A DNA stretch of 64,000 nt, taken from NCBI GenBank assembly GCA_000004985.1, contig GG738901.1. The stretch is one strand, 5' to 3'. The position numbers and the translations under genes are program-made. This stretch comes from Naegleria gruberi (taxonomy: Eukaryota). Below are positions 52,725 to 64,000 of this stretch, piece after piece (position 1 is the first letter of the stretch; every line of letters begins with the position of its first letter). The notes under the pieces were generated by a model. The model did no database searches, was not told the DNA's origin, and worked only from the letters and a program-made list of their open reading frames with translations.

Positions 52725-53344
52725 ATGGCTATGCAAGGACAAATGTATTCTTCCCAGGCACAACAAGTCTATTACCAATATGATAAAGATCGTAATGGTG
52801 TCCTCAAGAAGAAAGAATTCAAGAAGGCTATGCAAGGTATGTTATTATTGTTCTTTTTCGTGATTGTTGTAACAATGAATCATGTTAATCTTTCATAATA
52901 GCCCTCGGTGCACACAAAGATGAATGTAAACATTTATTCAAGATGGTTGATGTAGACCACAACAAGGTGATTACCATGAATGAATTCTTGAATGCCTATC
53001 TGTTCTTACAGGCAGGTGGTATGAAGTATAAAGGTACTGGATATCATGGAGCTTGTGGTACTGTGGGATCAACAACTACAACCACAACAATGATGGGAGG
53101 TCAACCTGGCATGATGCCTCAACAAGGATATCCACAACAATATCCACCTCAACAAGGTTACCCTCAACAACCTTATGGACAACCAGGTATGGGATATCCT
53201 CAGCAACCATACGGACAACCTGGAATGATGCCACAACAACAACAATATCCACCACAAGGATATCCACAACAATATCCACCTCAACAAGGATACCCTCAAC
53301 AATATCCACCTCAACAAGGAGGTTATCCACCATCATATCAATAA
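52725..53344 (+). CDS. Small calcium-binding protein: two EF-hands followed by a YPQQ/GQPG-repeat tail. Two exons: join(52725..52836, 52902..53344)
   Basis: Exon 1 encodes the EF-loop [13 protein letters not shown] 65-nt GTATGT..ATAG intron follows. Exon 2 encodes the EF-loop [12 protein letters not shown], then poly-Thr, then 8 repeats of YPQQ/PQQGYP. A possible extra 5' exon lies at 52502-52552. Confidence 0.6.
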
Positions 53345-53923: not shown

Positions 53924-55858
53924 TTGAAAAGGATTTACTGTTCTATTTGTTATTTACCACTGATTGATCCGATCATGCACTCTTTGTGTGAAAATATGTT
54001 TTGTTCTGGTTGTGCAAGGAAGATTGTTGATAATAGATGTCCACTTTGTAGAGCTGATAAGTTACTTGAAAATTGTTCATCTGTTCCAAAGTATATTACC
54101 AACAAGTTACATCAGCTGAAAGTGAAATGTTCAATGTGTAAGGGAGCAGTGGAGAGAGGTCAATTGAAGGATCATGAGGAAAAGCATTGTCCTCTTCATG
54201 AAGCTTATAAACAAGTTGATGAATTGAAAAATAGATTAGAGGAAGAATTCAAGAAGAAGAATGAATCTCAACAAATCCAAAATGAAAATATCTTGAGCAT
54301 AGAAAAGCAAAATTTAAAGAAAATTAAACTAGACCTTATCAAACAATACCAATTAAAAGAAGAAGCATTAGAGAAGAGGGTTAAAGAATTTGAAAATCAA
54401 CAATTGGTCAGATTAAAACTGGAGGCCAGTAACAAACCAATTTATCTCAATGTTGGTGGAACTATCATGACAGTCTCATTAGGAACATTTATTCACAACG
54501 AAAGAGAACCTGATAATTTATTCAAGAAAATGTTCACTGCTGAATATCCATTGTATCAAACATCAAATCAATTCAATGAGCCAGTATACTTTATTGATTG
54601 TGATTTGTTCATTTTCAAGCATATTCTTGATTGGTTAAAGTATGGAATATTAGACAGGGAGATAAATGTAGATTTGAGGAAATTATTGATTATATCTCAA
54701 TCTTTTGGAATTGATTTGAGGAGAGTTATTGTACAACATGTTAACTTGGCAGGAAAGGAAATTATTGGATTTGATTTTCGTGGAATGAACTTGGTTGATG
54801 TAAATTTCAAGGCAAGTTATTTTAAGGATTGTCATTTTTCAAATGTGGCAATTGGCTCTCAATTTAAAAAGGCACAATTTGAAAGTGTAACATTTGAAAA
54901 GTGTACAATTCAAATGCATTTTAAAAATAATAATTTGAAGAATTGCAAATGTATTGAATGTGAATTTAATGGATCTGTTTTTGAAAAAGCTAATTTCAAA
55001 TTAATTGAACTTGTTCTCACAACAAATAATTCATTTAATTGCTTAATTAAGAATACTGATTTAAGAGAAATGAGAGATTTATCAAAATTCAAAGGATTTA
55101 AATTTGATTCATGTTTATTTGATTTTTCTAAACTTTCAAACAAACAAATTAATTCTATCATGTTTGAAAATATTAATCTGGATGCACAAGATTTATCCAC
55201 CTTCATTTTTATTAATAGCACATTTGCACATACATCTTTCGCACATGTTAAACTGGATTCTAATTTTGGTATTGGACTTTCGAATATTATTAATAATTAT
55301 GGAAGTTTTGTATCAATTCCTCTATATATGCAAACTAAAAGTAAATCTATTCCTCAATTATTATACAGAGGAACAAGAGATGGATTCCATGCAAATGATT
55401 TTCATTCCAAATGTGATAATCAAGGCGCAACATTGACCATTATCAAATCAGAACATAATCAAGTATTTGGTGCTTTTACTAGTCAATCTTGGAAATCAAA
55501 CAAAGATAATTTCAACTTTGTTATGGACGATTCAGCATTTATTTTCAAAATTGTAACAGATCATAATGGAAATTATCAAGTTCAACACTTTAACATTAAC
55601 CAAAATAAGAAACAATATGCGATTGAAGCACATCATAAGTATTTGGTAATATTTGGAGGAACTACTGAGATTGAAGGGGATATATGTATATACAGTGATT
55701 GCAATTTGAATAATGCTTCATACTCGAACTTTGGATTGACATATGAATTACCCACAGGATACAATTATGGAACTGATGAAGCTAAAAGTTATTTGGCAGG
55801 ATGTTACACATTTAAAGTTATTGAAATTGAAGTTTTTAAAATTAATCCCTGGGAATAA
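53924..55858 (+). CDS. Multidomain protein: RING-type zinc finger, TRAF-type zinc finger, coiled-coil, BTB/T1 (KCTD-like), pentapeptide repeats, and a TLDc domain. The N-terminus is probably in ORF 53749-53967, in another frame
   Basis: The Cys/His spacing fits a RING (CSICYLPLIDPIMHSLCENMFCSGC...CPLC). The BTB/T1 segment is IYLNVGGTIMTVSLGTFIHNEREPDNLFKKMF. Pentapeptide-like repeats run from 54720 to 55260. TLDc signature: LLYRGTRDGFHANDFHSKCDNQGATLTIIKSEHNQVFGAFTSQSW. This frame opens just after a stop and has no ATG before the RING. Confidence 0.6.
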   Translation: MKRIYCSICYLPLIDPIMHSLCENMFCSGCARKIVDNRCPLCRADKLLENCSSVPKYITNKLHQLKVKCSMCKGAVERGQLKDHEEKHCPLHEAYKQVDELKNRLEEEFKKKNESQQIQNENILSIEKQNLKKIKLDLIKQYQLKEEALEKRVKEFENQQLVRLKLEASNKPIYLNVGGTIMTVSLGTFIHNEREPDNLFKKMFTAEYPLYQTSNQFNEPVYFIDCDLFIFKHILDWLKYGILDREINVDLRKLLIISQSFGIDLRRVIVQHVNLAGKEIIGFDFRGMNLVDVNFKASYFKDCHFSNVAIGSQFKKAQFESVTFEKCTIQMHFKNNNLKNCKCIECEFNGSVFEKANFKLIELVLTTNNSFNCLIKNTDLREMRDLSKFKGFKFDSCLFDFSKLSNKQINSIMFENINLDAQDLSTFIFINSTFAHTSFAHVKLDSNFGIGLSNIINNYGSFVSIPLYMQTKSKSIPQLLYRGTRDGFHANDFHSKCDNQGATLTIIKSEHNQVFGAFTSQSWKSNKDNFNFVMDDSAFIFKIVTDHNGNYQVQHFNINQNKKQYAIEAHHKYLVIFGGTTEIEGDICIYSDCNLNNASYSNFGLTYELPTGYNYGTDEAKSYLAGCYTFKVIEIEVFKINPWE

Positions 55859-57985
55859 CAATAATTTATCCAACAATACACCAATAAATTCGGAAATTAT
55901 GAGCTTTATTCTACTACACGCACCTAATAGAATATTTTCAACACTGAACAACCACAAAAACCAATTTCTACTAATCTATTATCCTTGAAATACTAGCAAA
56001 CCGAATAATGGTTGAAAAACTTGAAAATATTTATCCAAATAAAACAATAAAGAATTTCATTGATAAACCAATGGGTTAGTCTAGAGAAAATAGAGTGTTA
56101 GTGAAGTTCTTGCCAGCTAGGCCTTCAGATCTAAGGTCTTGTACCGACCATTAGATGGGTTTGGGTTTGGGAACCTCGGATACCTCTTACTCCAATCTCT
56201 TATTGATTTAAGATTTTGAAATTGTTTATTATTGAATTTTTATAAAGAGTGTTGATACGAATCAGAAGCTTCTTATTGTGACAACACTTGATAGAAGAAT
56301 GGGAAAGTGGCTGCATTAATTCAACATTTTGAAAGTGAACAAGGTTCTCATCTCAAGATTTGGAACTCTTCTTCATTAAGAGGAGGTTATAGGGTGGTGA
56401 CTAGAGAGAAACATTTCCTTGTAGCTTTTCTACTAAAATGATTAATTGACCAAGATCTTGACCTATAATATGGAAACACAATAAAATTCAATAATACTGA
56501 TAAATACAGTAGTAAATCTGAATGGTAATCATAAATCACTGAAAAAATCATGATTGGATCCATTTTGAGACTTTTGGAAGTCAACTTGGATGGCAATAGG
56601 GGAGCTTTCGATGTGGTTAACTTTTAAATGGATATGAATATTTTATTGGATAATATATGTCATCGCTGTACTTTATCACTAAATGTTGAACATCATGATG
56701 TTATAATCTATATTTCCAATTTGGGAAATGTTGTAATGTCAATGTTTAATTGAAATATTGCCATCATACCAATAATTGATTTTATACTACAAAACTGGTA
56801 TTATACACTATAATTGATATATATATGAATATATGATTGAAATATTTCAATTTTAACATTTATTAATGACGTGGGTTGTTCACTAAGGTAGTAACTTTGT
56901 CATATGATAACTATCTAAGATTATATTGAAATCATTCCAAAATTGATTCTATGACAGTATTTGATGATTATAACATGATAATATTGAATTGGTATTCATT
57001 CTTACCATTCATGACATGTAAGAATGTTACCTTTTTGTCAATTGCGACAGTAGATTGACAGATATTCCAATTATATAGATATTGATTTCTATCACTCAGA
57101 AACGTTATCAATATCAGTTATAAGAGTAGTGGTATGATATTCTATCTTGTTGTACATCTTGATATTGACTTGTCATATTATCATGAGTAGTTAGTGACAT
57201 GGTTAAATGACATGAATACTGAATGATGTCCAAATGATTTGAAATTGATAGGAACCTCATTATATGATGTTAATAACATATTGTATCAATTTGGTATTGA
57301 ATCTCATTGTCCTTAGGGTACTTCCCTATTGAGGAACCTTAATTGACCTTCTCTATATTTAAATTGAGATGTGATATTTATTTCAATTGTATCATCATTT
57401 TGTAAATGATGGATAAGTAGCCAAGTTGTGTATGGTGTAGAATTGGTATAACATTATTTTCAACATTTACAAGTGCCATTTCTCATCATCTGTTGGACCA
57501 AAACAAAAAATTTTGTTATAGTGGTGGTTTTTTTTACTAATATCCACATGTACAATATAGGAACAAGGAGATGCTTTATAGTTGTGCAGAATCATTCCAC
57601 CAACAATTAGTTTTTGAAATATTCTTTTCTTAGTGAACTTTGCTTACATCATTTTTATTAAGGAATTGTTTCAAGTAGATGGAAAGTGTTCTAAAATTGC
57701 TGTAGATGGTAACATTCCGTTACAGCATAGTTAAATTCTAAGAAATGATTGAGATTTGTGATTTTTTCACAACTGCTATCTTTTAAACAATGTTTGTCAT
57801 CCAACCCGATGTAAAAACTTTTTGAAATTGTTTCAAATGAGCTTGGAGTGGCTCAAACCCGTTGCTTCTTTTCAAAAAAGTTCCTGATCGAGCAATGTGA
57901 TGAGGCTGTAATATACTATTCAACAAAGTAAATTGTTTGCAATCTTACTGAACTTTGAATATTTCAAAATTATTAAGGAATTTTT

Positions 57986-58035
57986 NNNNNNNNNNNNNNN
58001 NNNNNNNNNNNNNNNNNNNNNNNNNNNNNNNNNNN
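57986..58035. other. Assembly gap (50 N)
   Basis: Run of n characters. Confidence 1.
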
Positions 58036-59169
58036 TTCAAATGTTGCACAGAGTCCTTATTTTTTTTTTGCTAGTAAGTTCGTTTATTTAAACATAGTTG
58101 TTTGGTAAAGTTGCTGGTTGATGTATGTGGTTGCATCTTTCTATCCACATTGCGTGAGTGAATTTAATTATTTCTATTTGGATTTCTTGTGCTTTATCCC
58201 AGGCCTCTAATGTTTGGTAGACTTCTTTGGGAAGTATTCCAATATAAATGGTTGAATATTTAGGGATAGTGTTGGATTTCAAGTGGGTTACTAGTATTTT
58301 TCTGATTGTTTCTAAAGGTTTTTTGGTTATTTGTTGGATATTGTCTTCTAGGCTTCTCCATAATCTTTCACGAAGATATTCAGTTTTTTTGCAGTTAAAA
58401 ATGGCGTGTTGAGTGTTCTCCTCTTCCTTGCAATCTCTTATAGGGCATCCATTACCTGGTGTAAAGATGTTGTTTGTTGGGAGACTGTTAAAAGCAGCTC
58501 TAGTGGCAATGTTGATTTGGTTTTTTGTGATGGTTTTGTTTTTAGGGATTATTCTAGATTTTCTAATCTTGCTAAATGCATTTAGGTTTGCTTTCGCTAC
58601 TTCTTCTTTAAATATTTCCGAGTATAGAATTGTATCTATTTTGTCATAGATTATTTTCTCATTAAAAGTAAAAAGGTATCTGTCTAACTCTTGAGCTGGG
58701 GGGATTGCTTTGGTCTTGTTTCTATTCTTGCGTCCTCTATTTGCTTCTATGTCAGCTTCATTATTGAGTTGAATTAAGACTTTTTCCTCATGGGTCATCT
58801 GTTGTGTTTCCACTTGGTGGGATTTAATGTGTCTTAGGGTAATCCTTTGCTTCTCTTTCCTGATGGCTTTCACATAGGGGTTATTCGTCTTTCTATCTCC
58901 TTCAATAATTTTAATACTTGCCATCGAATCTGTAAGAATTTGGATATTTCCTTTTGTCATTTTGCATGCTATATAGATTGCTTGAATTTCACAGTCAAAC
59001 GACGATGCTGCTGCGAAGGCATTCATATTGATTTTTTCTCCTTTTTCGGTGACTATACCAATTCCTCCTTCATTGTCTTTGAAGGATCCGTCTGTAGCAA
59101 TTATCATGTTCTCTTCTTCCATCAAAGAACCCATCTCTATATCTTTGGCTTTGGAAGGGCTTTTTTAAT
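58036..59169 (-). mobile_element. 3' portion of a non-LTR (LINE) retrotransposon: RNase H domain, CCHC zinc knuckle, a short 3' UTR with an A10 tract. It is truncated by a gap on its 5' side
   Basis: The minus-strand ORF 58088-59169 carries RNase H motifs (IIATDGS, FDCEIQAIYIA, ILTDSMASIK) followed by CPIRDCx7Hx4C. The frame stays open into the gap. A poly-A tract (plus-strand T10 at 58059-58069) lies 20 nt after the stop. Confidence 0.8.
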
Positions 59170-61733
59170 NNNNNNNNNNNNNNNNNNNNNNNNNNNNNNN
59201 NNNNNNNNNNNNNNNNNNNNNNNNNNNNNNNNNNNNNNNNNNNNNNNNNNNNNNNNNNNNNNNNNNNNNNNNNNNNNNNNNNNNNNNNNNNNNNNNNNNN
59301 NNNNNNNNNNNNNNNNNNNNNNNNNNNNNNNNNNNNNNNNNNNNNNNNNNNNNNNNNNNNNNNNNNNNNNNNNNNNNNNNNNNNNNNNNNNNNNNNNNNN
59401 NNNNNNNNNNNNNNNNNNNNNNNNNNNNNNNNNNNNNNNNNNNNNNNNNNNNNNNNNNNNNNNNNNNNNNNNNNNNNNNNNNNNNNNNNNNNNNNNNNNN
59501 NNNNNNNNNNNNNNNNNNNNNNNNNNNNNNNNNNNNNNNNNNNNNNNNNNNNNNNNNNNNNNNNNNNNNNNNNNNNNNNNNNNNNNNNNNNNNNNNNNNN
59601 NNNNNNNNNNNNNNNNNNNNNNNNNNNNNNNNNNNNNNNNNNNNNNNNNNNNNNNNNNNNNNNNNNNNNNNNNNNNNNNNNNNNNNNNNNNNNNNNNNNN
59701 NNNNNNNNNNNNNNNNNNNNNNNNNNNNNNNNNNNNNNNNNNNNNNNNNNNNNNNNNNNNNNNNNNNNNNNNNNNNNNNNNNNNNNNNNNNNNNNNNNNN
59801 NNNNNNNNNNNNNNNNNNNNNNNNNNNNNNNNNNNNNNNNNNNNNNNNNNNNNNNNNNNNNNNNNNNNNNNNNNNNNNNNNNNNNNNNNNNNNNNNNNNN
59901 NNNNNNNNNNNNNNNNNNNNNNNNNNNNNNNNNNNNNNNNNNNNNNNNNNNNNNNNNNNNNNNNNNNNNNNNNNNNNNNNNNNNNNNNNNNNNNNNNNNN
60001 NNNNNNNNNNNNNNNNNNNNNNNNNNNNNNNNNNNNNNNNNNNNNNNNNNNNNNNNNNNNNNNNNNNNNNNNNNNNNNNNNNNNNNNNNNNNNNNNNNNN
60101 NNNNNNNNNNNNNNNNNNNNNNNNNNNNNNNNNNNNNNNNNNNNNNNNNNNNNNNNNNNNNNNNNNNNNNNNNNNNNNNNNNNNNNNNNNNNNNNNNNNN
60201 NNNNNNNNNNNNNNNNNNNNNNNNNNNNNNNNNNNNNNNNNNNNNNNNNNNNNNNNNNNNNNNNNNNNNNNNNNNNNNNNNNNNNNNNNNNNNNNNNNNN
60301 NNNNNNNNNNNNNNNNNNNNNNNNNNNNNNNNNNNNNNNNNNNNNNNNNNNNNNNNNNNNNNNNNNNNNNNNNNNNNNNNNNNNNNNNNNNNNNNNNNNN
60401 NNNNNNNNNNNNNNNNNNNNNNNNNNNNNNNNNNNNNNNNNNNNNNNNNNNNNNNNNNNNNNNNNNNNNNNNNNNNNNNNNNNNNNNNNNNNNNNNNNNN
60501 NNNNNNNNNNNNNNNNNNNNNNNNNNNNNNNNNNNNNNNNNNNNNNNNNNNNNNNNNNNNNNNNNNNNNNNNNNNNNNNNNNNNNNNNNNNNNNNNNNNN
60601 NNNNNNNNNNNNNNNNNNNNNNNNNNNNNNNNNNNNNNNNNNNNNNNNNNNNNNNNNNNNNNNNNNNNNNNNNNNNNNNNNNNNNNNNNNNNNNNNNNNN
60701 NNNNNNNNNNNNNNNNNNNNNNNNNNNNNNNNNNNNNNNNNNNNNNNNNNNNNNNNNNNNNNNNNNNNNNNNNNNNNNNNNNNNNNNNNNNNNNNNNNNN
60801 NNNNNNNNNNNNNNNNNNNNNNNNNNNNNNNNNNNNNNNNNNNNNNNNNNNNNNNNNNNNNNNNNNNNNNNNNNNNNNNNNNNNNNNNNNNNNNNNNNNN
60901 NNNNNNNNNNNNNNNNNNNNNNNNNNNNNNNNNNNNNNNNNNNNNNNNNNNNNNNNNNNNNNNNNNNNNNNNNNNNNNNNNNNNNNNNNNNNNNNNNNNN
61001 NNNNNNNNNNNNNNNNNNNNNNNNNNNNNNNNNNNNNNNNNNNNNNNNNNNNNNNNNNNNNNNNNNNNNNNNNNNNNNNNNNNNNNNNNNNNNNNNNNNN
61101 NNNNNNNNNNNNNNNNNNNNNNNNNNNNNNNNNNNNNNNNNNNNNNNNNNNNNNNNNNNNNNNNNNNNNNNNNNNNNNNNNNNNNNNNNNNNNNNNNNNN
61201 NNNNNNNNNNNNNNNNNNNNNNNNNNNNNNNNNNNNNNNNNNNNNNNNNNNNNNNNNNNNNNNNNNNNNNNNNNNNNNNNNNNNNNNNNNNNNNNNNNNN
61301 NNNNNNNNNNNNNNNNNNNNNNNNNNNNNNNNNNNNNNNNNNNNNNNNNNNNNNNNNNNNNNNNNNNNNNNNNNNNNNNNNNNNNNNNNNNNNNNNNNNN
61401 NNNNNNNNNNNNNNNNNNNNNNNNNNNNNNNNNNNNNNNNNNNNNNNNNNNNNNNNNNNNNNNNNNNNNNNNNNNNNNNNNNNNNNNNNNNNNNNNNNNN
61501 NNNNNNNNNNNNNNNNNNNNNNNNNNNNNNNNNNNNNNNNNNNNNNNNNNNNNNNNNNNNNNNNNNNNNNNNNNNNNNNNNNNNNNNNNNNNNNNNNNNN
61601 NNNNNNNNNNNNNNNNNNNNNNNNNNNNNNNNNNNNNNNNNNNNNNNNNNNNNNNNNNNNNNNNNNNNNNNNNNNNNNNNNNNNNNNNNNNNNNNNNNNN
61701 NNNNNNNNNNNNNNNNNNNNNNNNNNNNNNNNN
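59170..61733. other. Assembly gap (2564 N); it presumably hides the RT and upstream part of the LINE
   Basis: Run of n characters. The flanking ORFs 'X...X' are artifacts. Confidence 1.
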
Positions 61734-62507
61734 AAATCTGTAAATATGAATGTGAAAATAAACTTGATATTCTATCTCTACACACCGAATGGAGCATTTT
61801 CATGTATAATTTGTTGATTGAAGTGATATATTTGATAGACTTGATCTGACTTGTCTTTCCTTTCAGTCAACTTTGTAAAATCAACATTTACATTCCCATG
61901 GTACCATTTCTAATTCTTATGATATGAAATTGAATTCTATATCACTATAGATCATATAAATCATTTTGGTAAAGTTTCAATAGGTGGTCCTTTATCAAGA
62001 TTTCCCACCTTTTCATCATAGTTGACCATGTGTGGTTGAGGGAAGAAATCTTTAAATATGAAAGTTAAAATAAATTTGATATTCGATGTTTACTAATCAA
62101 ATGGAACATTTTCATATTAGGATTCAATATGTTTTGATGAGAAACTCAAAACCTATAGTTGACCTCTTTTACCTCACAACTTCCCTTTTCACTTGATACT
62201 TTATATCTACCGACATGAAGTTTAGAAATTTCATATGAGAGTGATTATGAATGTTGTTAGTGAAGATATATACTATATAATCTCATTAAAGGATTTTGAA
62301 ATTATCATTCTTCCTATGGTTTCATTTTATAATTTTTAATCTGACATTATTTACAAAGTTAATATTTTATAAATTGAAAAACTAAATATAATACATTGTT
62401 CTACTCATCATTTACAATCGAATGATATAATATTCAATAATTTGGGCTAGGGTTTGAACTTTGAAACATTGGGTCTGGTATTTCAATTTTAGGTTCAAAG
62501 GTTTAGA

Positions 62508-62591
62508 TTTTTAGGCTTGGGTTTTTAGGCTTGGGTTTTTAGGCTTGGGTTTTTAGGCTTGGGTTTTTAGGCTTGGGTTTTTAGGCTTGGG
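62508..62591 (+). repeat. Six tandem copies of a 14-bp telomere-associated variant repeat, TTTTTAGGCTTGGG
   Basis: Direct reading shows six exact units. They sit immediately proximal to the canonical TTTGGG array. Confidence 0.9.
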
Positions 62592-62897
62592 TTTGGGTTT
62601 GGGTTTGGGTTTGGGTTTGGGTTTGGGTTTGGGTTTGGGTTTGGGTTTGGGTTTGGGTTTGGGTTTGGGTTTGGGTTTGGGTTTGGGTTTGGGTTTGGGT
62701 TTGGGTTTGGGTTTGGGTTTGGGTTTGGGTTTGGGTTTGGGTTTGGGTTTGGGTTTGGGTTTGGGTTTGGGTTTGGGTTTGGGTTTGGGTTTGGGTTTGG
62801 GTTTGGGTTTGGGTTTGGGTTTGGGTTTGGGTTTGGGTTTGGGTTTGGGTTTGGGTTTGGGTTTGGGTTTGGGTTTGGGTTTGGGTTTGGGTTTGGG
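62592..62897 (+). repeat. Telomeric repeat array (TTTGGG)n, internal block of about 51 units
   Basis: A perfect hexamer array ending at a 50-N gap. The G-rich strand runs 5'->3' toward the window end. Confidence 0.9.
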
Positions 62898-62947
62898 NNN
62901 NNNNNNNNNNNNNNNNNNNNNNNNNNNNNNNNNNNNNNNNNNNNNNN
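62898..62947. other. Assembly gap (50 N)
   Basis: Run of n characters. Confidence 1.
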
Positions 62948-63420
62948 GGAATTATATCTGAGTTGATTATTTTGATGGCTTGCTCTATTGTGAAGAACCA
63001 AGTTTTGATATTTCCTAGTTTTGCTTTGACTCTCTCAATCGCTTGAGTAGTTCTTTGTTTCCCTACTTGATCTTCAAAGTCCCCTAATTTTCTTATCCAA
63101 GGTTTTGTTTCAATCTTGGTTTCTCCAATTAGGATGTGTTTTTTATCACTGTTTGTGAAGTATTCAGTCTTCTTTTCATTCAATTCCATTCCATATTTTG
63201 CTAGTATGTTGTTATTGAATCTGTTCCATAGTGCAATCAATCTCTCTTGTGTATTTGCTATGAAGTCAGTGTCGTCCATGTTTGCTGAGTTGTTAATTGT
63301 AAATCCTATACTATCATATTTCATTTTGTAGTCGAAGCCTTCTAGATCAAACAATTGTTGAAGGATAAAATCTAGTGCGAGGACGAAAATTAATGGGGAT
63401 AGTGAATCTCCTTGTTTGAC
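62948..63420 (-). mobile_element. 5'-truncated non-LTR retrotransposon reverse-transcriptase fragment (RT motifs 4-7) abutting telomeric repeats
   Basis: The minus-strand translation [20 protein letters not shown]...[11 protein letters not shown]...KKTEYF...KLGDFE matches LINE RT motifs B', C (xMDD) and D/E. Its 5' end joins (CCCAAA)n with a 2-nt junction at 63420/63423. Confidence 0.8.
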
Positions 63421-63422
63421 AC

Positions 63423-64000
63423 TTGGGTTTGGGTTTGGGTTTGGGTTTGGGTTTGGGTTTGGGTTTGGGTTTGGGTTTGGGTTTGGGTTTGGGTTTGGGT
63501 TTGGGTTTGGGTTTGGGTTTGGGTTTGGGTTTGGGTTTGGGTTTGGGTTTGGGTTTGGGTTTGGGTTTGGGTTTGGGTTTGGGTTTGGGTTTGGGTTTGG
63601 GTTTGGGTTTGGGTTTGGGTTTGGGTTTGGGTTTGGGTTTGGGTTTGGGTTTGGGTTTGGGTTTGGGTTTGGGTTTGGGGGGGGGTTTGGGTTTGGGTTT
63701 GGGTGGTTTGGGTTTGGGTTTGGGTTTGGGTTTGGGTTTGGGTTTGGGTTTGGGTTTGGGTTTGGGTTTGGGTTTGGGTTTGGGTTTGGGTTTGGGTTTG
63801 GGTTTGGGTTTGGGTTTGGGTTTGGGTTTGGGTTTGGGTTTGGGTTGGGTTTGGGTTTGGGTTTGGGTTTGGGTTTGGGTTTGGGTTTGGGTTTGGGTTT
63901 GGGCCCGGGTTTGGGTTTGGGTTTGGGTTTGGGTTTGGGTTTGGGTTTGGGTTTGGGTTTGGGTTTGGGTTTGGGTTGGGTTTGGGTTTGGGTTTGGGTC
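63423..64000 (+). repeat. Terminal telomeric repeat array (TTTGGG)n of about 96 units, with a few degenerate units, running to the window end
   Basis: Hexamer array with variant units near 63676, 63703, 63845 and 63901. This is consistent with a chromosome terminus. Confidence 0.9.

What the first reader, a model, noticed from the sequence alone, without database searches (positions are those of the whole stretch)
58036..64000. The chromosome end is built from LINE retrotransposon fragments interleaved with (TTTGGG)n telomere arrays
Reading the minus strand from the distal end inward, the order is:
1. a (CCCAAA)n array;
2. a 5'-truncated RT fragment whose 5' end joins the repeat precisely;
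3. a second (CCCAAA)n block;
4. six 14-bp variant repeats;
5. roughly 0.8 kb of unique sequence plus a 2.5-kb gap;
6. an RNase H-CCHC-polyA 3' end.

Both retroelement pieces face the same way. Their 3' ends point toward the centromere and their 5' ends toward the terminus. This resembles telomere-specific LINE arrays, such as the SART/TRAS type in Bombyx, GilT/GilM in Giardia, Zepp in Chlorella, or HeT-A/TART-like maintenance in Drosophila. I have not seen it described for an AT-rich amoebozoan-like genome with a TTTGGG telomere.

The RNase H plus C-terminal CCHC order suggests an I/Tad/R1-like clade. The element may insert site-specifically into telomeric repeats and may contribute to end maintenance.
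Basis: partly seen in the sequence, partly recalled or inferred. Interest (0 to 1): 0.8.

Follow-up and report, generated by a model that had tools for sequence, protein, structure and literature searches.

The report
LINE pieces at a Naegleria telomere
The window ends in a real Naegleria gruberi chromosome end where pieces of one young LINE retrotransposon family sit next to, and in one case directly capped by, TTTGGG telomere repeats, but the "interleaved" layout rests on assembly gaps and nothing shows that the element targets or maintains telomeres.

Summary
The sequence features are real. There are two (TTTGGG)n arrays (52 and 97 units), six 14-bp variant repeats, a minus-strand RT fragment joined base-for-base to the distal array, and a minus-strand RNase H-CCHC 3' end.

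The genome is Naegleria gruberi (Heterolobosea), not an amoebozoan. TTTGGG was already proposed as its telomere repeat in 2013.

Near-identical metagenome contigs carry RT, RNase H and CCHC in one continuous stretch. Both window pieces therefore belong to one LINE family. Its closest full-length relative has APE-RT-RNase H-CCHC. Substitutions between copies are mostly synonymous, so the family is young and was recently active.

Three things weaken the telomere-specific reading:
- The order "array, LINE piece, array" depends on 50-N scaffold joins.
- The two pieces do not overlap and could be one copy.
- The proximal copy's short A-tail abuts non-telomeric DNA, and the closest relative lies beside a long ORF, not a telomere.

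Best reading: an ordinary LINE that has accumulated in a subtelomere, with one truncated copy capped by telomerase. This could follow breakage and healing or end/array-primed insertion. Telomere targeting remains possible (about 0.2) but unshown. The LINE clade is unresolved.

The parts
57986..58035 (.). 50-N scaffold gap between the unique AT-rich intergenic DNA and the LINE 3'-end contig
58036..58059 (.). 24 nt flanking the LINE 3' end (minus sense TAAGGACTCTGTGCAACATTTGAA). It is non-telomeric and is probably target DNA.
   Evidence: It has no similarity to L002/L003 element sequence.
58060..58069 (-). A10 run, probably the short poly(A) tail of the proximal LINE copy
   Evidence: It lies 13 nt after an AATAAA-like signal. 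The relative in L003 has the same layout: AATAAA, 12 nt, then an A-run. This is an inference.
58070..58087 (-). 18-nt 3' UTR of the LINE
58088..59169 (-). C-terminal 360 codons of LINE ORF2. Contains the RNase H domain (ATDGS 59084-59098 to NNEAD 58742-58765), the CCHC motif 58391-58447 and the stop codon 58088-58090. From 59134 down it is annotated as XP_002672050.1 (NAEGRDRAFT_52591).
   Evidence: Pfam RNase_H E=1.6e-8. 100% match to N. gruberi predicted protein P0001. 37% identity to residues 1015-1333 of P0004.
59170..61733 (.). 2564-N gap. It must hold the 5' continuation of the proximal LINE copy. It is too short for a full-length element, which needs at least 4.3 kb upstream of 59169.
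   Evidence: Size argument from P0004/L003 (ORF2 4.0 kb plus ORF1 1.2 kb).
61734..62442 (.). AT-rich non-coding subtelomeric DNA with a 70-nt repeat (83% identical) spaced 312 bp apart. It has no LINE homology.
62443..62507 (+). Degenerate telomere-like units (TTTGGGCTAGGGTTTGAAC...TTAGGTTCAAAGGTTTAGA) forming a natural subtelomere-to-telomere transition
62508..62594 (+). 6.2 identical copies of the 14-bp variant repeat TTTTTAGGCTTGGG
   Evidence: TRF score 174, 100% matches
62587..62897 (+). Proximal telomere array B, 52 perfect TTTGGG units, ending at a contig end
62898..62947 (.). 50-N scaffold gap. The join between array B and the RT contig is not supported by sequence.
62948..63422 (-). 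475-nt LINE RT fragment (motif [13 protein letters not shown] 63385-63420; catalytic box reads NMDD at 63268-63282 against YMDD in L002). It is 5'-truncated at 63422 and its 3' side is cut by the contig end.
   Evidence: Pfam RVT_1 E=2e-8. Continuous with L002 347-827, which runs on 5' past the junction. 40% identity to P0004 residues 623-779.
63423..64000 (+). Distal telomere array A, about 97 TTTGGG units. The first 42 are perfect and start directly at the LINE junction (GACAC|TTGGGTTTGGG).

Best explanation
**What it is**
This is a genuine Naegleria gruberi chromosome end. It carries telomerase-type (TTTGGG)n repeats and a normal subtelomere-to-telomere transition. The last 6 kb hold pieces of one young LINE family whose closest full-length relative reads APE-RT-RNase H-CCHC.

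**The proximal copy**
It is 5'-truncated. Its short A-tail abuts ordinary AT-rich DNA, which is what a generic target-primed insertion into the gene-poor subtelomere would leave.

**The distal piece**
It is a LINE copy whose antisense strand runs 3'->5' of the element along the G-strand. It stops inside the RT domain, and telomerase repeats start at that exact base.

**Most likely mechanism**
A chromosome end came to terminate inside a LINE copy, and telomerase extended that 3' end. There are two routes to this:
- (a) terminal breakage of a subtelomeric copy followed by healing;
- (b) a 5'-truncated target-primed insertion at or in the telomere, followed by telomerase extension.

The apparent array-LINE-array alternation may be real under route (b). 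It may instead come from the scaffolder chaining two alternative ends through pure-repeat mate pairs. In that case the RT-telomere contig would be either a healed version of the proximal copy or a different chromosome end.

**Shown versus inferred**
- Shown: the features, the family identity, the true 5' truncation and the purifying selection.
- Inferred: the healing or extension step, the A10 being the tail, and the scaffold artefact.
For: **Organism and repeat**
- The organism is N. gruberi.
- TTTGGG was already proposed as its telomere repeat (PMC3622300).

**One family, truly truncated**
- RT and RNase H were confirmed by Pfam.
- Contigs L001/L002 carry RT, a 682-nt linker, RNase H and CCHC in one continuous stretch. 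They differ from the window pieces by 5/468 and 7/891 substitutions, so this is one family.
- L002 continues 5' past the junction (element GACAC|CTGATGTTTGGGTGAA; window GACAC|TTGGGTTTGGG). This shows a true truncation with no microhomology.

**Recent activity**
- There are 9 synonymous and 3 nonsynonymous differences (pN/pS about 0.08; binomial P=5.6e-5). pS is equal in both pieces (0.033 and 0.034).

**Architecture and context of the relative**
- P0004 has APE-RT-RNase H-CCHC with an ORF1 upstream.
- It sits beside a 1778-aa ORF with no flanking array.

**Window anatomy**
- The proximal 3' end reads AATAAA, 13 nt, A10, then non-telomeric DNA.
- The 0.77-kb region is non-coding with no LINE homology.
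- All three gaps border LINE contigs, as expected for a multi-copy repeat that breaks an assembly.
- Degenerate and variant repeats precede array B only. That is the signature of an original chromosome end.
Against: - Only one LINE-telomere junction is visible.
- Healing and end-primed insertion give the same sequence and cannot be told apart here.
- Both pieces point the same way, with 3' ends toward the centromere. End-primed or G-strand-nicked insertion requires this. Random insertion would give it half the time for one piece, or automatically if both pieces are one copy.
- Both known N. gruberi pieces of this family lie within 6 kb of a chromosome end. Only one annotated N. gruberi protein matches the family. 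This hints at a non-random telomeric association.
- If the scaffold is right, a LINE is truly embedded between two arrays, which favours insertion over breakage.
Confidence: 0.55

Rival explanations
1. The LINE family is telomere-targeting. Either its endonuclease nicks the TTTGGG strand, or the free G-strand 3' end primes reverse transcription. Copies therefore insert into or onto telomeres in one orientation and telomerase then extends them. The array-LINE-array order would be real.
For: - Orientation fits: the antisense LINE is continuous with the G-strand, and the 3' end faces the centromere.
- The truncated 5' end is capped directly by 42 perfect repeats.
- Both N. gruberi pieces lie at a chromosome end, and only one annotated N. 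gruberi protein matches the family.
- The family is under purifying selection, so it was recently active.
- The scaffold places the RT contig distal to an array that has its own natural subtelomeric boundary.
Against: - The only visible 3' junction (A10, 58060-58069) abuts non-telomeric DNA.
- The distal piece's 3' junction is hidden in a gap.
- The join rests on 50 N.
- The 38%-identical relative lies beside a long ORF, not in an array.
- About 30 terminal TTTGGG contigs from metagenomes carry no relative of the element. None of them is N. gruberi-like, though.
- There was no hit to TRAS1 or R1Bm endonuclease chains at E<=10.
Confidence: 0.2
2. The RT-telomere contig is an artefact, such as a chimeric clone or a mis-assembly of repeat-containing Sanger reads. 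No LINE is joined to a telomere in the cell.
For: - The contig is only 1053 bp, about one to two Sanger reads.
- Its distal array shows read-end-type errors.
- It is attached by a 50-N join.
- No independent sequence with the same junction was found.
Against: - The junction is clean.
- The 42 repeats next to it are perfect.
- The array has the correct telomeric polarity at a scaffold end.
- LINE-to-telomere junctions of this form are a known biological outcome (Zepp; healing events).
Confidence: 0.15
3. The LINE has been recruited for chromosome-end maintenance, working with or substituting for telomerase as HeT-A/TART do in Drosophila.
For: Only the orientation and the terminal position of the pieces.
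Against: - The terminus itself is a long telomerase-type array.
- There are no tandem head-to-tail LINE arrays.
- The pieces are truncated, and the distal RT has NMDD in place of YMDD.
- There is no evidence from any other chromosome end.
Confidence: 0.05

Closest known systems
Zepp, the LINE-like element of Chlorella vulgaris that accumulates at telomeres (Higashiyama 1997; Yamamoto 2003; cited in PMC10088271 and PMC1635262; structural details from my own knowledge)
   Same: - It is an APE-type LINE in an organism with telomerase repeats.
- It has 5'-truncated copies with poly(A) toward the centromere.
- Telomeric repeats are found directly on a truncated copy.
   Different: - Zepp forms nested clusters by inserting into itself. 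Here the flanks are not LINE sequence.
- Zepp is assigned to the L1-like clade, whereas this family's clade is unresolved.
- Only one end and one junction are seen here.
TRAS/SART telomeric-repeat-specific LINEs of Bombyx and Tribolium (R1 clade)
   Same: These are LINE copies intercalated in telomerase-made arrays, each family in a fixed orientation.
   Different: - TRAS/SART 3' ends join a fixed nucleotide of the repeat. Here the one visible 3' end abuts non-telomeric DNA.
- There was no sequence hit to TRAS1 or R1Bm endonucleases.
- This family carries RNase H.
Chromosome healing: de novo telomere addition by telomerase at a broken end (known in Plasmodium, yeasts, ciliates and human terminal deletions; my own knowledge)
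   Same: Non-telomeric sequence is joined abruptly to perfect repeats with little or no microhomology, exactly as at 63422|63423.
   Different: Healing has no orientation requirement and does not involve retrotransposition. It would not by itself give a LINE flanked by arrays on both sides.
Endonuclease-independent LINE-1 insertion at dysfunctional telomeres (Morrish 2007), and HeT-A/TART/TAHRE end-primed transposition in Drosophila (PMC5537684, PMC3698924)
   Same: The chromosome's 3' end primes reverse transcription, so the element's 3' end faces the centromere and its 5' end becomes the new terminus.
   Different: Drosophila lacks telomerase repeats and has head-to-tail arrays of specialised Jockey-clade elements. 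Neither is seen here.
GilM/GilT of Giardia (CRE-clade telomeric LINEs; PMC10088271)
   Same: These are protist LINEs located at telomeres alongside short telomerase repeats.
   Different: GilM/GilT group with the CRE clade (PMC10088271), whose members lack an APE domain (my own knowledge), and they form tandem arrays. The present family's relative has an N-terminal APE domain.

Membership tests
Non-LTR (LINE) retrotransposon, APE type | LINE-type reverse transcriptase | tested here: met
   - RVT_1 scores 34.7 bits against a cutoff of 29.6.
- The best solved-structure hits are the R2 and LINE-1 ORF2p RTs.
- 13,575 RT relatives were found, and the nearest are APE+RT proteins.
Non-LTR (LINE) retrotransposon, APE type | N-terminal apurinic/apyrimidinic-like endonuclease | tested here: inconclusive
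   It is not present in the window, because that part of the element is missing or in the gap. It is present in the 38%-identical full-length relative P0004 (Exo_endo_phos 38 bits, Exo_endo_phos_2 34 bits).
Non-LTR (LINE) retrotransposon, APE type | 5' truncation and an A-rich 3' end from target-primed reverse transcription | tested here: met
   - The 5' truncation at 63422 is shown by L002 continuing upstream.
- A10 lies 13 nt after an AATAAA-like signal at the proximal copy's end.
- Target-site duplications cannot be tested because of the gaps.
TRAS/SART-type telomeric-repeat-specific LINEs | The 3' end is joined to a fixed position of the telomeric repeat | tested here: not met
   In the proximal copy, A10 is followed by TAAGGACTCTGTGCAACATTTGAA, which is not CCCAAA. 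The distal piece's 3' junction lies in the 50-N gap, so it is untested for that copy.
TRAS/SART-type telomeric-repeat-specific LINEs | Copies confined to telomeric arrays genome-wide | not testable with these tools
   - The N. gruberi genome could not be scanned.
- Only one annotated N. gruberi protein matches the family.
- The distant relative in L003 is not in an array.
TRAS/SART-type telomeric-repeat-specific LINEs | R1-clade RT and endonuclease | tested here: inconclusive
   P0004 gave no hit to TRAS1 or R1Bm endonuclease chains at E<=10, while it hits human L1 ORF2p and R2 about equally. No reference phylogeny was possible.
Zepp-like telomere-accumulating LINEs | Truncated copy capped directly by telomeric repeats, with poly(A) toward the centromere | tested here: met
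   The junction is at 63422|63423 and both pieces are on the minus strand. This holds only if the junction is not an artefact.
Zepp-like telomere-accumulating LINEs | Nested clusters from self-insertion | tested here: not met
   The flanks 55859-57985, 58036-58059 and 61734-62507 have no similarity to L002, to ORF1/ORF2 of L003, or to each other.
HeT-A/TART-type telomere maintenance | Head-to-tail arrays of elements form the terminus in place of telomerase repeats | tested here: not met
   The terminus is about 97 TTTGGG units. There is no tandem LINE array.
   - The domain order RT-RNase H-CCHC is confirmed.
- There was no zf-RVT hit.
- The RT is isolated: only 3 proteins score below E=1e-30 among 1.84 billion.
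- Source names are uninformative.
- Neighbours have mixed architectures.

The most novel reading that the evidence does not exclude
Naegleria gruberi, a heterolobosean with TTTGGG telomeres, harbours an active APE-RT-RNase H-CCHC LINE family. The family inserts preferentially into or onto telomeric arrays in one orientation and is then extended by telomerase. It would be the first telomere-associated retrotransposon described in Heterolobosea, and an independent origin of the Zepp or TRAS/SART lifestyle.
Probability: 0.2. Interest if true: 0.6.

Novelty: new member of a known kind. Interest (0 to 1): 0.33.

Why it matters
Suppose long reads confirm that this LINE sits inside or caps Naegleria telomeres at several ends. 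That would add a deep-branching eukaryotic lineage to the short list of organisms where retrotransposons and telomerase share chromosome ends: insects, Chlorella, Giardia, Magnaporthe, rotifers and the anole. It would bear on how often this association evolves.

As it stands, the finding gives three things:
- a clean LINE|telomere junction;
- a partial consensus of an uncharacterised Naegleria LINE family;
- a warning that this scaffold end is stitched across three gaps.

Tried and rejected
- **Other copies in the window.** tblastn and blastn with the two pieces, L001/L002 and ORF1/ORF2 of L003 found none.
- **The 0.77-kb stretch as LINE 5' UTR, ORF1 or APE.** Rejected. It has no open frame and no similarity.
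- **Flanks as one subtelomeric satellite, or a nested LINE cluster.** Rejected.
- **More copies from public data.** Word-indexed protein searches gave only the N. gruberi protein itself and one metagenome (ERR1078381). A scan of JGI metagenomes with a composite ORF2 found nothing. Exact-protein look-ups of two neighbouring ORFs, meant to reach other assemblies of this end, found nothing on record.
- **Scan for (TTTGGG)6 in metagenomes.** It gave 120 loci, about 30 of them with terminal arrays. None carries this LINE or resembles N. gruberi. This is uninformative for N. gruberi itself.
- **Clade assignment.** Tried with PDB chains, a full HMMER search of 1.84 billion representatives, source names, and the Pfam architecture of neighbours. 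It remains unresolved.
- **Ciliate origin.** I considered it because Paramecium uses TTTGGG/TTGGGG. I dropped it once the ORFs read open in the standard code and the protein matched N. gruberi.
- **Literature.** I found no paper on Naegleria telomeric retroelements. The Cell 2010 genome paper and the Zepp and Giardia primary papers are not held.
- **The interstitial TGGGTTTGGGTTTGGG at 56156 as an RNA gene.** There was no Rfam hit and no unusual folding.

Full report
**1. What is in the sequence**

The window's last 6 kb contain the following, read on the + strand:
- a 50-N gap (57986-58035);
- an 1134-bp contig (58036-59169);
- a 2564-N gap;
- 0.77 kb of AT-rich DNA (61734-62507), which ends in degenerate telomere-like units;
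- 6.2 identical copies of TTTTTAGGCTTGGG (62508-62594);
- 52 perfect TTTGGG units (62587-62897);
- a 50-N gap;
- a 475-bp unique stretch (62948-63422);
- about 97 TTTGGG units running to the window end (63423-64000).

TTTGGG dimers with up to one mismatch occur 140 times, against 0.57 expected. Only one lies in the interior, at 56160. The G-rich strand points 5'->3' to the right end, which is the polarity of a chromosome terminus.

On the minus strand both unique stretches are open reading frames.
- 62948-63422 encodes RT motifs ([13 protein letters not shown], then NMDD). It passes Pfam's RVT_1 threshold.
- 58088-59169 encodes an RNase H domain, also above threshold. A C-x4-C-x7-H-x4-C motif (58391-58447) and a stop codon follow.

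- The 'polyA' is A10 (58060-58069). It lies 18 nt after the stop codon and is followed by 24 non-telomeric bases before the gap.
- The 0.77-kb stretch has no coding capacity on either strand.

**2. Whose genome**

The RNase H ORF is 100% identical to XP_002672050.1 (NAEGRDRAFT_52591) of Naegleria gruberi NEG-M, on a 309-kb scaffold. Naegleria is a heterolobosean (Discoba), not an amoebozoan. TTTGGG was already named as the candidate N. gruberi telomere repeat by Fulneckova et al. 2013 (PMC3622300). I found no paper on retroelements at Naegleria telomeres. A 2023 catalogue of telomere-intercalated retrotransposons does not mention the genus (PMC10088271).

**3. The two pieces are one LINE family, and it is young**

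Two contigs from one metagenome (ERR1078381; L001 and L002, identical to each other where they overlap) carry the RT, a 682-nt linker, RNase H and CCHC in one continuous stretch.

Substitutions against the window are 5/468 in the RT piece and 7/891 in the RNase H piece. Nine are synonymous and three nonsynonymous. pS is 0.033 and 0.034 for the two pieces, pN/pS is about 0.08, and the binomial P is 5.6e-5. The copies therefore descend from a lineage under selection, meaning a recently active element.

L002 continues 5' of the point where the window switches to telomere repeats. The element reads ...GACAC|CTGATGTTTGGGTGAA and the window reads ...GACAC|TTGGGTTTGGG. The window copy is thus truly 5'-truncated, and there is no microhomology at the junction.

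The closest full-length relative is P0004 (38% identity over 824 aa). Its ORF2 has 1335 aa and reads APE-RT-RNase H-CCHC, and a 409-aa ORF1 lies upstream.

The family is isolated. A full HMMER scan of 1.84 billion representatives gave only three proteins below E=1e-30.

The clade could not be assigned:
- PDB hits to human L1 ORF2p and to R2 are comparable.
- There is no hit to TRAS1 or R1Bm endonucleases.
- Source names are uninformative.
- Neighbours have mixed architectures.

**4. How far the 'interleaved' picture can be trusted**

Only one LINE/telomere junction (63422|63423) is read in continuous sequence. The link between array B and the RT contig is a 50-N join, and all three gaps border LINE contigs. 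That pattern is typical of a multi-copy repeat breaking a Sanger assembly.

The two pieces do not overlap on the element (positions 355-827 and 1510-end of L002) and have equal pS. They could therefore be parts of one copy.

Three layouts fit the data.
- (i) The scaffold is right. A LINE then lies between two arrays, and at least 2 kb of its 3' part is hidden in the '50-N' gap.
- (ii) The RT-telomere contig is a healed, terminally deleted version of the proximal copy (another homologue or a subpopulation). The real order would be RNase H, 682 nt, RT, telomere.
- (iii) The contig belongs to another chromosome end and was chained on through mate pairs that fall in pure TTTGGG sequence.

Array B is preceded by degenerate and variant repeats, the usual signature of an original terminus. 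Array A is not. This fits any of the three layouts. The 2564-N gap is too short for a full-length element, which needs at least 4.3 kb upstream of 59169. The proximal copy is therefore 5'-truncated as well.

**5. Is the element telomere-specific?**

Evidence for:
- Both pieces have their 3' ends toward the centromere. That is the orientation produced when the G-strand 3' end, or a nick in it, primes reverse transcription.
- The only two pieces known from N. gruberi lie within 6 kb of a terminus.
- Only one annotated N. gruberi protein matches the family.

Evidence against:
- The one visible 3' junction is not in telomeric repeats. The sequence reads AATAAA-like signal, 13 nt, A10, then TAAGGACTCTGTGC.... 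The relative in L003 has the same signal-spacer-A-run layout, so A10 is probably the tail.
- That relative lies directly upstream of a 1778-aa cadherin-like ORF with no flanking array.
- The flanks in the window are not LINE sequence, so there is no Zepp-like nesting.
- Metagenome contigs with terminal TTTGGG arrays carry no relative. None of them is N. gruberi-like, so this weighs little.

Nothing speaks for a maintenance role. The terminus is a long telomerase-type array, and the distal RT piece has NMDD in place of YMDD.

**6. Verdict**

Best explanation (about 0.55): an ordinary, recently active LINE family has accumulated in this subtelomere. One copy ends at a point that telomerase extended, either after breakage and healing or right after a truncated insertion at the telomere.

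Rivals:
- Telomere-targeted insertion, about 0.2.
- An artefactual junction, about 0.15.
- A maintenance function, about 0.05.

The closest known parallels are Chlorella Zepp (in structure) and chromosome healing (in mechanism). Membership in the TRAS/SART type fails on the one junction that can be read.

The finding is a new member of a known kind at most. It needs long reads, which exist (PMC12695648), to decide.

Noticed in passing
window 56153-56171 (+); L003 11076-11094: An interstitial telomere-like 16-mer, TGGGTTTGGGTTTGGG, lies about 300 nt downstream of the last gene, in a locally GC-richer island. It is the only interior match in 62 kb. The identical 19-mer AGATGGGTTTGGGTTTGGG occurs in the unrelated metagenome contig that carries the LINE relative, with no flank similarity. 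It could be a short interstitial telomeric sequence, a telobox-like motif, or, on the minus strand, a telomerase-RNA-template-like stretch. There was no Rfam hit and folding was unremarkable.
   Followed up: partly
window 62508-62594: Six perfectly identical 14-bp units, TTTTTAGGCTTGGG, lie directly proximal to the canonical array. Degenerate units (TTTGGGCTAGGGTTTGAAC...) precede them at 62443-62507. The perfect identity suggests recent slippage or amplification. Whether other N. gruberi ends share this variant is unknown.
   Followed up: no
window 61734-61803 and 62046-62115; also 57628-57670 and 57943-57985: Short direct repeats are spaced 312-315 bp apart on both sides of the LINE-containing gap (83% over 70 nt; 79% over 43 nt). 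The two regions are not similar to each other.
   Followed up: partly
window 63268-63282 vs L002: The telomere-capped RT piece reads NMDD where the metagenome copy reads YMDD in the catalytic box. It also has a 3-nt insertion (NNN against NN). The metagenome copy L002 itself carries frameshifts and a 20-nt deletion.
   Followed up: partly
L001, L002 (ERR1078381 / ERZ929261, PRJEB11402): A public metagenome contains a Naegleria strain whose LINE copy differs from NEG-M by only about 1% substitutions. It is a possible source of independent subtelomere sequence.
   Followed up: partly
L009, L031, L033, L044, L056, L079, L080 (contigs JAESGV01...): Seven contigs of one WGS project end in correctly oriented terminal TTTGGG arrays (GC 0.22-0.38). 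This is an unidentified organism with the same telomere repeat. It is not N. gruberi-like by blastn and carries no relative of this LINE.
   Followed up: partly
window 52943-53344 (+): An ORF contains a PQQGYP-type low-complexity repeat (TRF period 30, 2.8 copies, 90% matches).
   Followed up: no
window 55859-57985: 2.1 kb of non-coding DNA at 29% GC lies between the last gene (53924-55858) and the first gap. It has no ORF of at least 70 aa apart from one that overlaps the last gene's 3' end (55743-55988), and no TE homology. The gene-dense part of the scaffold stops about 8 kb from the terminus.
   Followed up: partly
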